Of a stretch of DNA of 64,000 nt, positions 337 to 54,505 are shown piece after piece; the stretch's first letter is position 1; every line of letters starts with the position of its first letter. The notes beneath the pieces were generated by a model. The model saw only the letters and a program-made list of their open reading frames with translations, did not search any database and was not told the DNA's origin. The position numbers and the translations under genes were made by a program. Source of the DNA: Octopus vulgaris (Eukaryota); NCBI GenBank assembly GCA_951406725.2, contig OX597819.1:50716001-50780000 (forward strand), written 5' to 3'.

Positions 337-1045
<709 letters not shown>

Positions 1046-1090
1046 AATAATAATAATAATAATAATACGGAAGTAAGAAAGTGACCGTAG

Positions 1091-1147
<57 letters not shown>

Positions 1148-1240
1148 CACACACGTATCCACACACAGACATACATATTAATATGTATTTAGATATATAC
1201 ACGTACATACGCATATATTTGCATTATATATATATATATA

Positions 1241-2023
1241 TATAAATATAACAATTTAGGAGTGACCCTAACAGGTAATTCGTCCACCAGAAAGAGCAGC
1301 CATAACTCACACCGCCAAGTAGTAGTAATTCAGAAATTAGGTGAAAATTTAAAAACATTTACCCTAATTCATCTTTTAGACGTTGCAACGTTTCTGTGTC
1401 ATTAATGATTAAATTAGCTTAATTAAATTAAATTAAGCTAATCTACCATAGGTTACACTTCATCAGTAAAAAACCTGGGAGAGACAAATATACACGAGGC
1501 GTCTGTATCGATGCCTACGGAATATCTGTCTTAAAATTTTCAAGACTGACGTATTCGCGCCAAACTTATCAGCAGTAAATATAAACTGCCGATTCAATCT
1601 CAGAATTATTCAGAAAATTATCAATTAGTCAATTTAGGGTAGCAAAAAATTCAATAGAAATTTATCGCTACCAACGGCCTAGTGGAAAAGAGAAAATAGT
1701 CAACGACTAGATATATAAATATAACAATTTAGGAGTGACCTAACAGGTCATTCGTCCACCAGAAAGAGCAGCCATAACTCACACCGCCAAGTAGTAGTAA
1801 TTCAGAAATTAGGTGAAAATTTAAAAACATTTACCCTAATTTCTGAATTACTACTACTTGGCGGTGTGAGTTATGGCTGCTCTTTCTGGTGGACGAATGA
1901 CCTGTTAGGGTCACTCCTAAATTGTTATATTTATATATTTAGTCGTTGACTATTTTCTCTTTTCCACTAGGCCGTTGGTAGCGATAAATTTCTATTGAAT
2001 TTTTTGCTACCCTAAATTGACTA
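1241..2023 (-). mobile_element. HHR-bearing non-autonomous PLE-like element: 473-bp unit, partial tandem copy and fold-back inversion
   Basis: 1241-1369 is repeated at 1714-1841; 1835-2023 is the reverse complement of 1626-1813; flanked by (TA)n; homologous to the 491-bp unit at 8360. Confidence 0.8.
1373..1472 (-). ncRNA. Type I hammerhead ribozyme (long stem II)
   Basis: UUUUUA-CUGAUGA-[long hairpin]-GAAA-C-GUUGCAAC-GUC-UAAAAG; stem I has 6 bp; stem III ACGUUGCAACGU is a palindrome; stem II closes with an A/A mismatch. Confidence 0.8.
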
Positions 2024-2047
2024 TATATATATATATATATATGGCTG

Positions 2048-3843: not shown

Positions 3844-3867
3844 AAGAGAAATAGTAACAGCAACAAT

Positions 3868-3903
<36 letters not shown>

Positions 3904-3930
3904 TACAAAAAAAAAAATAATAATAATAAT

Positions 3931-4488
3931 TGCGGTGATGTAGTACCAGGCAGTGGCTCCCATGGCTTCTGATCTTAACTGATTGGAAGTGTTATCATGT
4001 ACATTGTTTTGTCTTGGTATAAAAGATGGGCTATCGCAAATATTCTGCTCAATACCACAGATTTGCTTGTCAGTTGTTTGACCATAACCAGTTGAGCATG
4101 TCCCTTAGTGGCTGACAATATGTGCATCTCTGATCATGAGTAGGAGTAATGAGGGAGCATCATAGCCATGTGTCAAGAGGAATTATCTGGGGGTTTGGAT
4201 AATTCACCTTTGGAAACATGGGTGTTTCATTCAGCATGCTTAAACAATCCTTATTCAGGGAGCTTTTGAGTGGGGTGGGCTACTGAACCTGAAGAAAATT
4301 CTAACTGGGCCCCACCTGCAAGGTCATGCGCTGTTTATGTTGATATGTGATCACCATGTCGTGTACATATGGTTGTGATGCATGTGCTTGGTGTACTCTT
4401 ATCAGATGAGTAGTGATGATGGGTATACTGGATTTCGTATATTTTACCCTAGCGTCACTTTGATGGCATGCAATGCTCTCTCTTACTC
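3931..4488 (+). mobile_element. (AAT)n-associated element, copy 2 (more diverged)
   Basis: Colinear with 491-1045; AAT runs on both sides. Confidence 0.9.
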
Positions 4489-4550
<62 letters not shown>

Positions 4551-5986: not shown

Positions 5987-6261
5987 TGAATCCTTTTTCC
6001 AATAATAATAATGTACATGGCTTGAAATGTTTGTCTCGCTTTAACGTTTGTTAACAATTATATATCCGCTATATCGGAAATCTGCAATGGCTCCATAACT
6101 ACCGTCTCGGCAATGATGTGTGTATCCATGTGATATAATATGCACGTTACATTATATATAGATGCATATATACACATACATGTATATATATATGCACACA
6201 CATACATGTAAATATCTATATATATATATATATGTGTGTATGTATGTATGTATGTATGTAT

Positions 6262-6465
6262 ATTATGTTAAAAATGGGGAGAGCCGGTTTATGGGATTGC
6301 CATAGGTTTCTCGTCCATAAAGGGTTTAGCTTTATGGCGTATCGTCAGATCACAAAACCTGTCGGCCTTTTGGGATCTGACGATACCCCATGAAGCTAAA
6401 TTTTTTATGGACGGGAAACCTAAGGTATTCCCATAAACCGGCCTTCCCCATTTTTGATATTATAT
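6262..6465. mobile_element. ~200-bp imperfect fold-back formed by two inverted copies of an HHR-bearing repeat
   Basis: Arms of ~95 bp around a CCTGTCGGCC loop; microsatellite flanks. Confidence 0.8.
6371..6433 (+). ncRNA. Type I hammerhead ribozyme (mirror copy on the minus strand at ~6292-6354)
   Basis: UGGGAU-CUGACGA-stem II(CCAUGAAG/UUUUAUGG)-GAAA-C-CUAAG-GUA-UUCCCA; the mirror copy supplies AUCCCA (perfect stem I) but has GCA in place of GUA. Confidence 0.7.
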
Positions 6466-6734
6466 ATACTGCTCTACATCTTAGAGTGTGCTTCTTCTTT
6501 CGGAAAGACTATGTATTAGTTATAAAATATAGTGTACATTTAAATACATAAGGAATTCTCTCATGGGATTCAACACGCTAGAAAGAACAGCTAGGTTCTA
6601 TAACCACAAAATTAGGTATAAAATTCGACAGGAATGAAATGAAAAAATAATAACATTTTACTATCTAATTTCCTGGACCAATTGGTTTCTGATTTTAGTT
6701 TAGCAAGTAAATAAATCTTACTCGCGAAGTGAAA

Positions 6735-8357: not shown

Positions 8358-8478
8358 GACAATCAAGGAACGGCCATAATAGGCCATTCGCCCACTAGAA
8401 ATAACAGCCAAAAGCTTTAACCGCAAAATAACATCAATTCCGTAAACCAGGAGAAAATTAAAAAACATTTACCCTGTA

Positions 8479-8585
8479 ATTTCTTAGACGATGCACCGTT
8501 TCATCTACTGTTTAATGGTAAACTAACCTGATTAAATTAAATCAAGCCAATCTACCATAGGCCCTTAGATTCATCAGTAAGAAAT
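8479..8585 (-). ncRNA. Type I hammerhead ribozyme, canonical core
   Basis: AUUUCUUA-CUGAUGA-AUCUA[long hairpin]UAGAU-GAAA-C-GGUGCAUC-GUC-UAAGAAAU; stem I is a perfect 8 bp and the base of stem II a perfect 5 bp. Confidence 0.9.
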
Positions 8586-8969
8586 AGCCAAGTCGGAACA
8601 GATATTTTTCACGAGGCATTCCCGTTGCTACCTCGGCAATATCTGACCTAAAATTTTCAAATCGTCGCACTCGCGCCAAATTTATCGGCAGCAAATAAAT
8701 ATAAGCCGCCGATTCCATTACGGAATTAACCAGAACATTCATAATTAATCAATATAGGGTGGCAAAAAAAATTTTGTAGAATTCTTTTGCCACCAGCGGC
8801 CTAGTGGGAAAAAATTAAATAGTCATAAACCATTTTTAAGTTCAACATCACAATCAAGGAACGGCCATAATAGGCCATTCGCCCACTAGAAATAACAGCC
8901 AAAAGCTTTAACCGCAAAATAACATCAATTCCGTAAACCAGGAGAAAATTAAAAAACATTTACCCTGTA

Positions 8970-9076
8970 ATTTCTTAGACGATGCACCGTTTCATCTACT
9001 GTTTAATGGTAAACTAACCTGATTAAATTAAATCAAGCCAATCTACCATAGGCCCTTAGATTCATCAGTAAGAAAT
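8970..9076 (-). ncRNA. Type I hammerhead ribozyme, second tandem copy
   Basis: Same sequence as 8479-8585, offset by 491 bp. Confidence 0.9.
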
Positions 9077-9500
9077 AGCCAAGTCGGAACAGATATTTTT
9101 CACGAGGCATTCCCGTTGCTACCTCGGCAATATCTGACCTAAAATTTTCAAATCGTCGCACTCGCGCCAAATTTATCGGCAGCAAATAAATATAAGCCGC
9201 CGATTCCATTACGGAATTAACCAGAAAATTCATAATTAATCAATATAGGGTGGCAAAAAAAATTTTGTAGAATTCTTTTGCCACCAGCGGCCTAGTGGGA
9301 AAAAATTAAATAGTCATAAACCATTTTTAAGTTCAACATCACAATCAAGGAACGGCCATAATAGGCCATTCGCCTATGATCGGAAAGTTGAACTATGAAC
9401 TTTTATGCTTCCTTTTTCTTCTCTTCATCTCCTTATTCCTTTACTCCTGTCCTTTATGTTGTCATTTCATTAATCTATACCCTTCTCATTTTCCCTATTT

Positions 9501-9556
9501 GTCTCCGATGACAGACTATCCCATACTCTAGGGTATCCCAGAAACAGCTGTAAGAC
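9501..9556 (+). ncRNA. HHR-like motif with CCGAUGA core (duplicate at 10581-10636)
   Basis: GUCU-CCGAUGA..GAAA-C-AGCU-GUA-AGAC; stem I is a perfect 4 bp; stem II is degenerate. Confidence 0.55.
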
Positions 9557-9678
9557 TTTGAATCTTTTCCCAATAATAATAATAATGTATATGACTTGAG
9601 ATGTTTGTCTTGCCTTAACGTTTTCTTTCCTCTGTTACAACTAACAAGTATATATATGTAAAATCTCAAGAACACATA

Positions 9679-9729
<51 letters not shown>

Positions 9730-9814
9730 CACACACACACGCGTGCACATGCACACAAATATAGAAATCTAAATGTACATATATATAAATTCTTTTAGTT
9801 TTTCTAACCCCTGA

Positions 9815-9896
9815 AAAAACTTCACAAGGGAGGATCTCCATCCAGGCCTTTCCCGATACTCTTAAAGCCAGGAACTTTTCAGCATTCCCTCGCATA
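9815..9896 (+). mobile_element. Mariner-type terminal fragment (duplicate at ~10895-10975)
   Basis: Ends GCCAGGAACTTTTCAGCATTCCCTCGCA-TA, which resembles a mariner TIR. Confidence 0.5.
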
Positions 9897-10037
9897 TACC
9901 TCTCGTATATACATATGTATGTGTTGGAGTTTAGCAATACCATGTACGCCTATGAGGATTTAGTTTCCCAATGAAACTCGGTTTTTTTTCTCAAACCTGT
10001 TATAATGTGATACAAGTCTTTGGTGTGGCAATTGTAC

Positions 10038-10130
10038 GCGGCTGAAGAAGGCTTTTGATCTATCTGTTATATCAATTATGCATTGATATAAGAATAAGTT
10101 GTTCAATAAAGCTCGACACATATGTACCGC
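10038..10130 (+). ncRNA. HHR motif with GAAA>GACA substitution (duplicate at 11116-11208)
   Basis: GCGG-CUGAAGA-long hairpin(UUAUAUCAAU/AUUGAUAUAA)-GACA-C-AUAU-GUA-CCGC; stem III ACAUAUGU is a palindrome. Confidence 0.65.
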
Positions 10131-10166
10131 AAAATCCTTTGTGTCCTGTTTTTCATTTACTTCATT

Positions 10167-10208
<42 letters not shown>

Positions 10209-10249
10209 TCGTATGTTTGTGTGTGAGTTCGGGGTTCCTATAGAGTATC

Positions 10250-10318
<69 letters not shown>

Positions 10319-10333
10319 CCTATCTATCTATCA

Positions 10334-10397
<64 letters not shown>

Positions 10398-10760
10398 GTT
10401 TGTTTAACTATTTATCTACTTAAACCTGTTTTTGCCCAGAATGCTTTAATAATAATAAACATATTACTTACTCAACCACAGTTATTCGAGTTCTATTTTT
10501 CTCTTCATCTCCTTATTCCTTTACTCCTGTCCTCTATGTTGTCATTTCATTAATCTATACCCTTCTCATTTTCCCTATTTGTCTCCGATGACAGACTATC
10601 CCATACTCTAGGGTATCCCAGAAACAGCTGTAAGACTTTGAATCTTTTCCCAATAATAATAATAATGTATATGACTTGAGATGTTTGTCTTGCCTTAACG
10701 TTTTCTTTCCTCTGTTACAACTAACAAGTATATATATGTAAAATCTCAAGAACACATAGA

Positions 10761-10819
<59 letters not shown>

Positions 10820-11244
10820 GCGTGCACATGCACACAAATATAGAAATCTAAATGTACATATATATAAATTCTTTTAGTTTTTCTAACCCCTGAAAAAACT
10901 TCACAAGGGAGGATCTCCATCCAGGCCTTTCCCGATACTCTTAAAGCCAGGAACTTTTCAGCATTCCCTCGCATATACCTCTCGTATATACATATGTATG
11001 TGTTGGAGTTTAGCAATACCATGTACGCCTATGAGGATTTAGTTTCCCAATGAAACTCGGTTTTTTTCTCAAACCTGTTATAATGTGATACAAGTCTTTG
11101 GTGTGGCAATTGTACGCGGCTGAAGAAGGCTTTTGATCTATCTGTTATATCAATTATGCATTGATATAAGAATAAGTTGTTCAATAAAGCTCGACACATA
11201 TGTACCGCAAAATCCTTTGTGTCCTGTTTTTCATTTACTTCATT

Positions 11245-11286
<42 letters not shown>

Positions 11287-11327
11287 TCGTATGTTTGTGT
11301 GTGAGTTCGGGGTTCCTATAGAGTATC

Positions 11328-11400
<73 letters not shown>

Positions 11401-11418
11401 CCTATCTATCTATCAATC

Positions 11419-11471
<53 letters not shown>

Positions 11472-11730
11472 GTTTGTTTAACTATTTATCTACTTAAACC
11501 TGTTTTTGCTGCTTTAATAATAATAAACATATTACTTACTCAACCACAGTTATTCGAGTTCTATTTTTTCCCACCTCGTTTCACATTTTTGTGCTTACTT
11601 TGGTGGTATTTATTTATGTATCTAGATTTGTCCGTCTCTATAGCTGTTCATCAAATTATTCCTGTGGTTATTATTATGCGTTATATGAATGAATTTTTGA
11701 ACGCTTATTACTGTGTCTCGTTCTGTCCCG

Positions 11731-51999: not shown

Positions 52000-52474
52000 G
52001 TCTTGGTATGAAAGATGGGCTACAACAAATATTCTGCTCAATACCACGGACTTGCTTGTCAGTTGCTTGACCTTAACCAGTTGACCATGTCCCTTAGTGG
52101 CTGACGATATGTGCATCTCTGATCATGAGCAGAAGTAGTGGGGGAGCATCATAGCCATGTGTTGAGAGGGATCCTTTCAGGTTTGAATAATTCACCTCTG
52201 GAAACATGGGTGCTTCGTTCAACATCCTTAAACAACCCTTATTCAGGGACCTTTTGAGCGAGATGGGTTACTCGACCAGAAGAAAATTCTAACTGGGCCC
52301 CACCTGTAAGGACATGTGCTGTTTATCTTGATATGAAATCACCATGTCGTGCATATATGGCTGTGATGCATGTGCCTAGTATACCCTATTCAGACAGGTA
52401 GTCATGATGGGTATACTGGGCTTCGTATATTTTACCCCAGTGTCACTTTGATGGCATGCACTGCTCTCTCACTC
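52000..52474 (+). mobile_element. (AAT)n-associated element, copy 3, left-truncated
   Basis: Lacks the first ~80 bp; shares the right end CTCTCTCACTC-AAT. Confidence 0.9.
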
Positions 52475-52477
52475 AAT

Positions 52478-52537
<60 letters not shown>

Positions 52538-53831: not shown

Positions 53832-53895
<64 letters not shown>

Positions 53896-54470
53896 TGCCC
53901 TGATGCAGTACCAGGCAGTGGCTCTCATGGCTTCTGATTTTAACTGATTGGAAGCGTTATCATGTACATTGTTTTGTCTTGGTATAAAAGATGGGCTACA
54001 GCAAATATTCTGCTCAATACCACAGATTTGCTTGTCAGTTGTTTGACCTTAACCAGTTGAGCATGTCCCTTAGTGGCTGACGATATGTGCATCTCTGATC
54101 ACGAGCAGAAGTAGTGGGGGAGCATCATAGCCATGTGTTGAGAGGGATTCTTTGGGGTTTGAATAATTCACCTCTGGAGACACGGGTGGTTTTTTCAACA
54201 TCCTTAAACAACCCTTATTCAGGGACTGTTTCCCTTATTCAGGGACTGTTTGAGCCGGATGGGCTACTCAACCTGAAGAAAATTCTAACTGGGCCCCACC
54301 TGCAAGGTCATGTGCAGTTTATCTTGATATGAGATCACCATGTCGCGCACATATGGTTGTGATGCATGTGCCTGGTGTGCCCTTATCAGACGGGTAGTCA
54401 TGATGGGTATATTGGGCTTCGTATATTTTACCCCAGTGTCACTTTGATGGCATGAACTGCTCTCTCACTC
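53896..54470 (+). mobile_element. (AAT)n-associated element, copy 4
   Basis: Full length; has an internal ~20-bp tandem duplication CCCTTATTCAGGGACTGTTT. Confidence 0.9.

Positions 54471-54505
<35 letters not shown>

What the first reader, a model, noticed from the sequence alone, without database searches (positions are those of the whole stretch)
1241..1713. Diverged 473-bp homologue shows compensatory changes across the hammerhead
Seen: this unit shares colinear blocks with the 491-bp unit (AAAAACATTTACCCT, ATCTACCATAGG, CGCGCCAAA.TTATC, CGGCCTAGTGG) but is otherwise substantially diverged. The catalytic CUGAUGA, GAAAC and GUC are invariant while the stems change in pairs. Stem I is UUUUUA/UAAAAG versus UUCUUA/UAAGAA. 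The stem II base is GUGU/ACAC versus UCUA/UAGA. Stem III is ACGUUGCAACGU versus ACGGUGCAUCGU. Inference: selection maintained ribozyme structure in two subfamilies, which argues against a chance motif match. The conserved blocks outside the HHR may be promoter or RT-recognition signals.
Basis: partly seen in the sequence, partly recalled or inferred. Interest (0 to 1): 0.85.

Follow-up and report, generated by a model that had tools for sequence, protein, structure and literature searches.

The report
Two-armed hammerhead retrozyme with paired ends
This is one of over a thousand copies of a non-coding, roughly 480-base mobile repeat with a structurally conserved hammerhead ribozyme fold, and its insertions sit in (TA)n repeats as two back-to-back arms ending at two different fixed sites, which likely records a Penelope-type enzyme copying a predicted circular RNA from both DNA strands at once.

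Summary
Confirmed and extended. The 473-bp unit (A) and the 491-bp unit (B) are 73% identical end to end and carry a type I hammerhead on the minus strand. The genome holds 1,205 matches to the core motif (control 2) and 228 to a second motif that finds diverged subfamilies (control 0). Stems I-III covary: partner columns change on the same tree branch 20 times against 5.5 expected.

The finding's unit is one arm of a two-armed insertion (1238-1841 minus, 1835-2023 plus) in (TA)n. In 56 of 56 simple two-armed insertions with both ends at the fixed sites, one arm ends at site X and the other at site Y, about 90-105 nt further on. Arms reach 10.5 tandem units and share insertion-private variants.

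This matches the Penelope-like (PLE) 'tail' signature, so the element is a non-autonomous PLE-type retrozyme, a known class. New here: strict one-X-one-Y pairing, a long tail, and genomic hints of circular templates. Not shown: self-cleavage, expression, circles, or the partner enzyme (three PLE families checked, none similar).

The parts
1238..1841 (-). X arm of the subfamily-A insertion: 1.28 tandem units; 3' end at site X in (TA)n; 5' end 10 nt after the predicted cleavage site
   Evidence: (L001 1498-2101)
1835..2023 (+). Y arm of the same insertion (0.40 unit, inverted); 3' end at site Y running into (TA)n
   Evidence: (L001 2095-2283)
1835..1841 (.). 7-nt microhomology (CCTAATT) at the junction of the two arms
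   Evidence: sequence; overlap
1373..1472 (-). Type I hammerhead. Stem I 1472-1467 with 1378-1373; CUGAUGA 1466-1460; long stem II 1459-1395; GAAA 1394-1391; palindromic stem III 1391-1380 with UGCA loop; C17 at 1379; predicted cut 1379|1378
1352..1366 (-). Conserved block 3' of stem I; its core TAAATGTTTTT is nearly invariant and unpaired in the consensus fold; role unknown
1260..1281 (-). Covarying hairpin immediately 5' of site X
   Evidence: (pairs 109-128, 111-126, 113-124, 115-122)
1238..1248 (-). Site X (unit position about 131-141 after the cut), where one arm of each insertion joins (TA)n
1624..1672 (-). Internal copy of the hairpin 5' of site Y (1672-1638) and of site Y itself (about 1626-1624; unit position 226-228)
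1225..1240 (.). Left (TA)n target flank
2022..2041 (.). Right (TA)n target flank
8359..9374 (-). One-armed subfamily-B insertion: 2.07 tandem 491-bp units ending at site X in (TA)n; hammerhead cores at 8577 and 9068

Best explanation
A non-coding repeat with a covarying type I hammerhead fold, inserted into (TA)n as two back-to-back tandem arms that end at two different fixed sites, likely a non-autonomous Penelope-like retroelement (non-LTR retrozyme) copied from a predicted self-cleaved, circularised RNA. Shown: the fold, the copy number, the arm geometry, the one-X-one-Y pairing, the (TA)n targets and the homogeneity within insertions. Inferred steps: (1) a tandem array is transcribed; (2) the hammerheads cut at GUC/GUA, possibly as dimers through the palindromic stem III, and monomers (sometimes dimers) are ligated to circles; (3) a Penelope-like RT-GIY-YIG protein supplied in trans binds the structured X/Y domain and nicks both strands of a (TA)n tract about 12-14 bp apart; (4) one 3' end primes at X and the other at Y; (5) both RTs run for a variable distance, often several rounds; (6) the two cDNA ends are joined through 0-7 nt of microhomology. 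Confidence by step: PLE-type mobilisation about 0.88; hammerhead fold under selection about 0.95; mostly circular template about 0.6; both arms from one RNA molecule about 0.5.
For: Fold. Copy number. Architecture: of 84 insertions, 56 simple two-armed ones with both ends at the fixed sites are all X+Y (0 XX, 0 YY); 20 are one-armed and 8 are complex, cut or have an odd end; 132 of 141 X/Y ends are followed by (TA)n. In a sample taken from the junction patterns rather than from the hammerhead (C1, 0-90.85 Mb; 22 X and 44 Y junctions), all 16 divergent pairs are X+Y. The same ends recur in subfamilies 65-84% identical. Target duplications of about 12-14 bp or more are visible in four interrupted TA tracts. 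Two RT start sites that bound the PLE tail, and cleavage of both strands of AT-rich DNA, are shown in vitro for a PLE (PMC11167929, parts 1-2 of 4 read). Circle: 43 of 112 arms exceed 2 units, the longest 10.5. Substitution differences within an insertion are 0.17% (A) and 0.52-0.56% (B), the same between opposite arms as within an arm, against 2.84% and 2.45% between insertions. One variant is in 9 of 9 units on both arms of a C2 insertion and once elsewhere, in a 95%-identical older unit. Another alternates unit by unit, in the same phase on both arms of a C8 insertion, and occurs nowhere else in the assembly. 5' ends pile up 5-12 nt after the predicted cut: 13 of 150 arms, expected 3.7, p=1e-4; scan-corrected p=0.013 on the first 120 arms. 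RT+GIY-YIG elements with long open frames are abundant in this genome.
Against: No autonomous partner found: three PLE families (L152-155, L227-237) show no similarity to the unit by blastn or nhmmer. Subfamily A has an A.A mismatch at 10.1-11.1, and its isolated ribozyme region misfolds by 2.4 kcal/mol (B by 3.3); Li et al. saw cleavage in only 1 of 9 tested Xenopus retrozyme dimers. Variant patterns are mixed. Shared non-fixed variants are in phase on both arms in 3 insertions and out of phase in 4. Several are confined to one arm or to neighbouring units, which points to exchange after insertion or to two template molecules. One variant is shared only by the terminal units of both arms (C3:22531271), which fits a linear multimer. 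No 5' end maps to positions 1-4, so the pile-up may be RT stalling at stem I rather than run-off from a cut end. Y junctions outnumber X junctions (647 against 413 on the forward strand), so many insertions lack a detectable X arm. The tail is 90-105 nt, not the 30-40 bp described for PLEs.
Confidence: 0.72

Rival explanations
1. Same PLE-driven two-site priming, but on linear multimeric read-through transcripts of existing arrays. The hammerhead is a conserved protein-binding or processing fold that need not cut, and arrays are lengthened and homogenised by unequal exchange after insertion.
For: Hammerhead mutants did not affect PLE insertion in vitro, and no reads ended at the cut site (PMC11167929). 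A terminal-unit-only variant on both arms, and arm-restricted or neighbour-shared variants. A.A mismatch in the young subfamily A. A C7 array carries G12U in 5 of 8 units.
Against: Private variants fixed across inverted arms (15 private fixed variants among the 54 insertions with 3 or more passes, most on both arms), with no donor array in the assembly for the two variants tested genome-wide. Opposite arms are as alike as units of one arm. Stems I-III keep pairing through repeated double changes.
Confidence: 0.2
2. The arrays are solo pLTR remnants of an autonomous PLE, or DNA-level satellites amplified locally, not independently mobile RNAs.
For: Li et al. (bioRxiv 10.64898/2026.07.22.740005) propose local amplification of PLE termini into tandem repeats. 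Some neighbour-shared variants.
Against: Dispersed over most large contigs. Each insertion has its own random 5' truncations and fixed 3' ends. No ORF-bearing version was seen in 84 A/B insertions or about 45 diverged loci. The unit has no ORF over 66 codons.
Confidence: 0.05
3. Mobilised by a LINE through ordinary twin priming, with (TA)n microhomology choosing the ends.
For: Back-to-back geometry and junction microhomology resemble L1 twin priming (recalled). X and Y are AU-rich and could anneal to TA primers.
Against: L1 twin priming uses the RNA 3' end plus a variable internal site (recalled). Here both sites are internal and fixed across subfamilies 65-84% identical, never the same on both arms, and there is no poly(A) tail.
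Confidence: 0.03

Closest known systems
Non-LTR retrozymes of animals (Cervera and de la Pena 2020, PMC7229834; parts 2-4 of 6 and a term search read)
   Same: Non-coding, low-GC tandem repeats with one type I hammerhead per unit; palindromic stem III loop; target duplications longer than 4 bp; coexistence with PLEs; proposed circle-templated tandem cDNA.
   Different: Units are 468-491 nt (150-450 bp there). Stem II spans about 55-80 nt across subfamilies, with an internal loop and an AU-rich hairpin. The two-armed insertions with fixed X/Y ends in (TA)n are not described there: the words inverted, opposite and microsatellite do not occur in its main text (supplement not read). Expression and circles were shown there and could not be tested here.
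EN+ Penelope-like elements: pLTR, inverted copy and tail (Craig 2021 PMC8557442, passages; Arkhipova 2013 PMC3846280, passages; Frangieh 2024 PMC11167929, parts 1-2 of 4)
   Same: Partial tandems plus an inverted 5'-truncated copy; a tail often at only one end; microsatellite or AT-rich targets; hammerhead upstream of two internal RT start sites; both strands cut.
   Different: No ORF. The tail is 90-105 nt rather than 30-40 bp. Both arms are multimers. The tail is described there as optional, and Frangieh saw no difference in start site between strands in vitro, whereas here two-armed insertions always use one site each.
Retrozymes as non-autonomous PLE derivatives (Li, Clavereau, Pollet 2026, bioRxiv 10.64898/2026.07.22.740005; parts 1-3 of 5 read)
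   Same: Same conclusion on origin; unit size within their 51-972 bp range.
   Different: Their evidence is co-occurrence and pLTR homology, mainly in vertebrates; no analysis of insertion ends was seen in the parts read. Here the evidence is the insertion signature, and pLTR homology to an autonomous element was not found. Their supplements are closed.
Non-autonomous Chlamys elements such as MRC1 (passage in PMC8557442)
   Same: Non-autonomous PLE derivatives forming multicopy head-to-tail insertions.
   Different: Green algae; the Naiad/Chlamys clade lacks canonical hammerheads; those elements are similar to autonomous families at the 3' end.

Membership tests
Type I hammerhead ribozyme | Core CUGANGA, GAAA and NUH in type I order | tested here: met
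   H is C in 38, A in 6 and U in 1 of 45 stem haplotypes
Type I hammerhead ribozyme | Three helices with covariation | tested here: met
   pair 10.1-11.1 forms in 31 of 45 haplotypes and is A.A in subfamily A
Type I hammerhead ribozyme | Tertiary contact between stems I and II | tested here: inconclusive
   a candidate GG/CC pseudoknot shows no covariation in its flanking pairs, 77 of 124 against 74.6+-4.0, p=0.32
Type I hammerhead ribozyme | Match to an Rfam hammerhead model | tested here: not met
   the long stem II is the likely reason
Type I hammerhead ribozyme | Self-cleavage | not testable with these tools
   indirect only: 5' ends enriched 5-12 nt after the cut site
Non-LTR retrozyme | Dispersed tandem repeats, one hammerhead per unit | tested here: met
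Non-LTR retrozyme | Non-coding and GC under 50% | tested here: met
   GC 32-37%; longest in-unit ORFs 43-66 codons, not shared by A and B
Non-LTR retrozyme | Target duplication longer than 4 bp | tested here: met
   about 12-14 bp or more in four interrupted TA tracts; undefinable in pure (TA)n
Non-LTR retrozyme | Expressed as linear and circular RNA | not testable with these tools
   no run on record as RNA holds the unit; circular fold z -5.7 (A) and -6.2 (B) on 12 shuffles each
EN+ Penelope-like element | ORF with RT and GIY-YIG | tested here: not met
   none in the element; present elsewhere in the genome
EN+ Penelope-like element | Partial tandem plus inverted 5'-truncated copy | tested here: met
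EN+ Penelope-like element | [quoted passage not shown] | tested here: met
   56 of 56 and 16 of 16 pairs are X+Y; length 90-105 nt, outside the published 30-40 bp
EN+ Penelope-like element | AT-rich or microsatellite target | tested here: met
   132 of 141 ends in (TA)n
EN+ Penelope-like element | Homology to the pLTR of an autonomous family | tested here: inconclusive
   none to the three families examined; the genome holds more families than were sampled

The most novel reading that the evidence does not exclude
Each insertion is made in one concerted event. A dimeric Penelope-type RT-endonuclease holds a single ribozyme-made RNA circle, nicks both strands of a (TA)n tract and starts rolling-circle reverse transcription from two structurally defined sites, one per strand and never the same one. 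The PLE 'tail' is then not optional but the mark of an asymmetric two-ended integration, and these arrays are a direct genomic record of circular RNAs (monomer, dimer, perhaps trimer) serving as retrotransposition templates in an animal.
Probability: 0.4. Interest if true: 0.78.

Novelty: new variant of a known kind. Interest (0 to 1): 0.56.

Why it matters
The class is known. How animal retrozymes are copied back into DNA, and by which enzyme, is stated as open in the papers read (PMC7229834; bioRxiv 10.64898/2026.07.22.740005), and so is how PLEs form tandem/inverted structures with a tail (PMC8557442, PMC11167929). This family gives hundreds of young, ORF-free insertions in which both questions can be read from the ends: strict one-X-one-Y pairing, arms of up to 10 units, and variants that mark the template. 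It also offers a defined RNA domain of about 240 nt, with two mapped candidate start sites, for in vitro tests with a PLE protein.

Tried and rejected
Rfam: no hammerhead hit; the microRNA-like hits at 1783-1865 are the arm-junction hairpin and lie below gathering score.

RNA evidence: no RNA holder listed. Two raw RNA runs of another coded organism laid 0 reads, which is no test; two contig sets only guessed to be RNA cover the unit but cannot show expression, strand or ends.

Autonomous partner: the PLE fragment beside L098 and its family and two further families have unrelated termini. Ten further PLE regions were not examined, so the search is incomplete.

Other ideas: the stem I/stem II pseudoknot is not supported. 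A short-stem-II pattern found only an unrelated minimal hammerhead family and SINE matches. The C7 'trimer circle' is kept only as a hint: the core-killing G12U follows period 3 over 8 units, but two other variants and the opposite arm do not. No tRNA gene in the window. Earlier scan notes were empty.

Literature searches that found no description of this family or of paired ends in retrozymes. Subscription journals, Repbase/Dfam entries and supplements were not visible and may hold it.

Full report
Observation. The window comes from a 2.8-Gb animal assembly. Its repeat content looks cephalopod-like to me, but that is recalled and no call names the host. The unit at 1241-1713 and the 491-bp tandem unit at 8359-9374 align end to end at 73% identity. 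Unit A has an A.A mismatch at 10.1-11.1. Rfam does not detect the motif.

Family. DNA searches gave 1,516 and 1,502 first-look candidates for A and B; the scored full-length copies were 93-100% identical. A core pattern matched 1,205 times (reversed control 2). A second pattern that excludes G at 15.3 matched 228 times (control 0) and exposed further subfamilies 65-84% identical to A/B, with units of 468-491 nt.

Covariation. On 15 representatives, stems I and III are 98% paired, 7 of 10 pairs change on both sides, and neither 500 shuffles nor slid partners reach the score. Position 15.3-16.3 occurs as G-C, A-U, U-A, C-G and U-G. On a tree built from sequence outside the ribozyme (37 representatives of 161 distinct sequences), partner columns change on the same branch 20 times at 12 pairs, against 5.5+-1.7 for re-paired columns, with 0 of 11,027 as high; 17 of these keep the pair. 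The patterns imposed CTGATGA and GAAAC, so core invariance among the diverged subfamilies is not independent evidence.

Structure outside the ribozyme. The rest of the unit is also structured: 22 of 95 consensus pairs have a two-sided change, and the circular fold lies 5.7 (A) and 6.2 (B) SD below 12 shuffles each. The catalytic fold is predicted 2.4-3.3 kcal/mol above the local optimum, and stem III is marginal as a hairpin (-0.9 and -0.2 kcal/mol) but strong as a duplex (-17.9, -17.5), which suggests dimer cleavage (dimeric hammerheads are described in PMC4209133, part 1 of 4 read). A proposed stem I/stem II pseudoknot failed its test.

The finding's unit belongs to an insertion at 1238-2023 made of two arms that point away from each other, joined at a 7-nt microhomology and flanked by (TA)n. 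Across 84 A/B insertions, 56 are simple two-armed insertions with both ends at fixed sites. All 56 have one end at X (about 131-141 nt after the predicted cut) and one at Y (about 226-237). Twenty are one-armed, and 8 are complex, cut or oddly ended. 132 of 141 X/Y ends run into (TA)n, and the two arm lengths are uncorrelated.

These loci were chosen for holding a full unit or a hammerhead, so I checked a sample drawn from the junction patterns instead. On C1 0-90.85 Mb, 22 X and 44 Y junctions form 16 divergent pairs, all X+Y. Y junctions outnumber X genome-wide (647 against 413 on the forward strand; reverse counts are inflated by the variable gap). The diverged subfamilies end at the homologous positions. 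X and Y each lie about 10 nt 3' of a covarying hairpin, after a similar CCT(A/T)(A/T)ATTG-like word, inside one multibranch domain closed by a long helix. Interrupted TA tracts show target duplications of about 12-14 bp or more.

Comparison with PLEs. Craig 2021 and Arkhipova 2013 (passages) describe partial tandems, an inverted 5'-truncated copy, a 30-40 bp tail often at one end only, and microsatellite targets. Frangieh 2024 (parts 1-2 of 4) shows that the tail is the stretch between two internal RT start sites and that both strands of AT-rich DNA are cut and extended. The anatomy here is that signature without an ORF. It differs in tail length (90-105 nt) and in the strict pairing, which the in vitro work did not see. 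Cervera 2020 defines non-LTR retrozymes, shows their circles and names PLEs as the likely helper. Li 2026 links them to pLTRs by homology. In the parts read, neither analyses arm ends.

RT+GIY-YIG elements with open frames of 750-1,200 residues are plentiful here (20,550 and 6,322 first-look candidates; domains), but the three families examined have unrelated termini. The partner is unidentified.

Circular or linear template: evidence for circles. 43 of 112 arms exceed two units and the longest has 10.5, so copying crossed many predicted cut sites. Units within an insertion differ by 0.17% (A) and about 0.5% (B), no more between opposite arms than within an arm, against 2.8% and 2.4% between insertions. 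Fifteen variants are private and fixed within one of 54 insertions. One variant fills 9 of 9 units on both arms of a C2 insertion and occurs once elsewhere, in an older 95% unit. Another alternates T,G / T,G,T,G in phase on both arms of a C8 insertion and occurs nowhere else, as a dimer circle would give. 5' ends are enriched 5-12 nt after the cut (13 of 150, p=1e-4; scan-corrected 0.013 on the first 120).

Evidence against, or blurring. No 5' end lies at positions 1-4. Shared non-fixed variants are in phase in 3 insertions and out of phase in 4, and some are confined to one arm or to neighbouring units. A C7 array keeps G12 in every third unit, but its other variants are not periodic. The assembly shows one haplotype, so donors may be missing. 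Expression could not be tested.

Verdict. Real, and the ribozyme reading is supported. It is a new family of a known class, a non-autonomous PLE-type retrozyme, with an unusual long stem II and long tail. Its value is the clean record of mechanism in its insertions: two-ended priming with one start site per arm, and probable rolling-circle copying. Searches found no description of this family or of paired ends in retrozymes; repeat databases, subscription papers and supplements were not visible. Interest 0.56.

Noticed in passing
window 6259-6464: A separate 206-bp two-armed inverted element (arms 82% identical). Each arm has a hammerhead-like core (CTGACGA at 6377 + and 6348 -), and both arms end at about the same point in TA-rich flanks, unlike the X/Y rule. 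More copies in L192 and L135.
   Followed up: partly
window 6515-6658 (-): Old, diverged relative of unit positions 17-160 (nhmmer 25 bits, E 1e-7); more copies in L159 and L135.
   Followed up: partly
window 34835 (+): Minimal hammerhead core of a different, short-stem-II family that also lies in the termini of the PLE in L155 and L098.
   Followed up: partly
L177, L195, L200, L223-L225: Another long-stem-II hammerhead-like family with a 2-bp palindromic stem III and GUA; no blastn similarity to A/B and no long ORF nearby.
   Followed up: partly
L159 (G000:C7:78332830-78337428): Array in which 5 of 8 hammerheads of the long arm carry G12U and every third keeps G.
   Followed up: yes
L152-L155, L236, L237: Three young RT+GIY-YIG (Neptune-like by the recalled Cys motif) families with open frames of 753-1,214 residues; one ends in (TA)n and one shows inverted arms.
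   Followed up: partly
window 1557-1567 (-): GCGC is invariant in all 14 aligned units, usually as TTGGCGCG(A/G), and resembles an E2F site (recalled); possible promoter element, untested.
   Followed up: no
window 414-1067, 3856-4510, 52000-52496, 53832-54492: Four copies of an interspersed repeat of about 600 bp (90-93% identical to the first) between (AAT)n/(AAC)n tracts; may be another microsatellite-targeting element.
   Followed up: no
window 9416-10500 and 10496-11568: Local tandem duplication of about 1.08 kb at 98% identity, next to the B array.
   Followed up: no
L164: Two-armed A insertion whose second arm ends at unit position 44, after a CCTAATT word like those at X and Y, instead of at X.
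   Followed up: no
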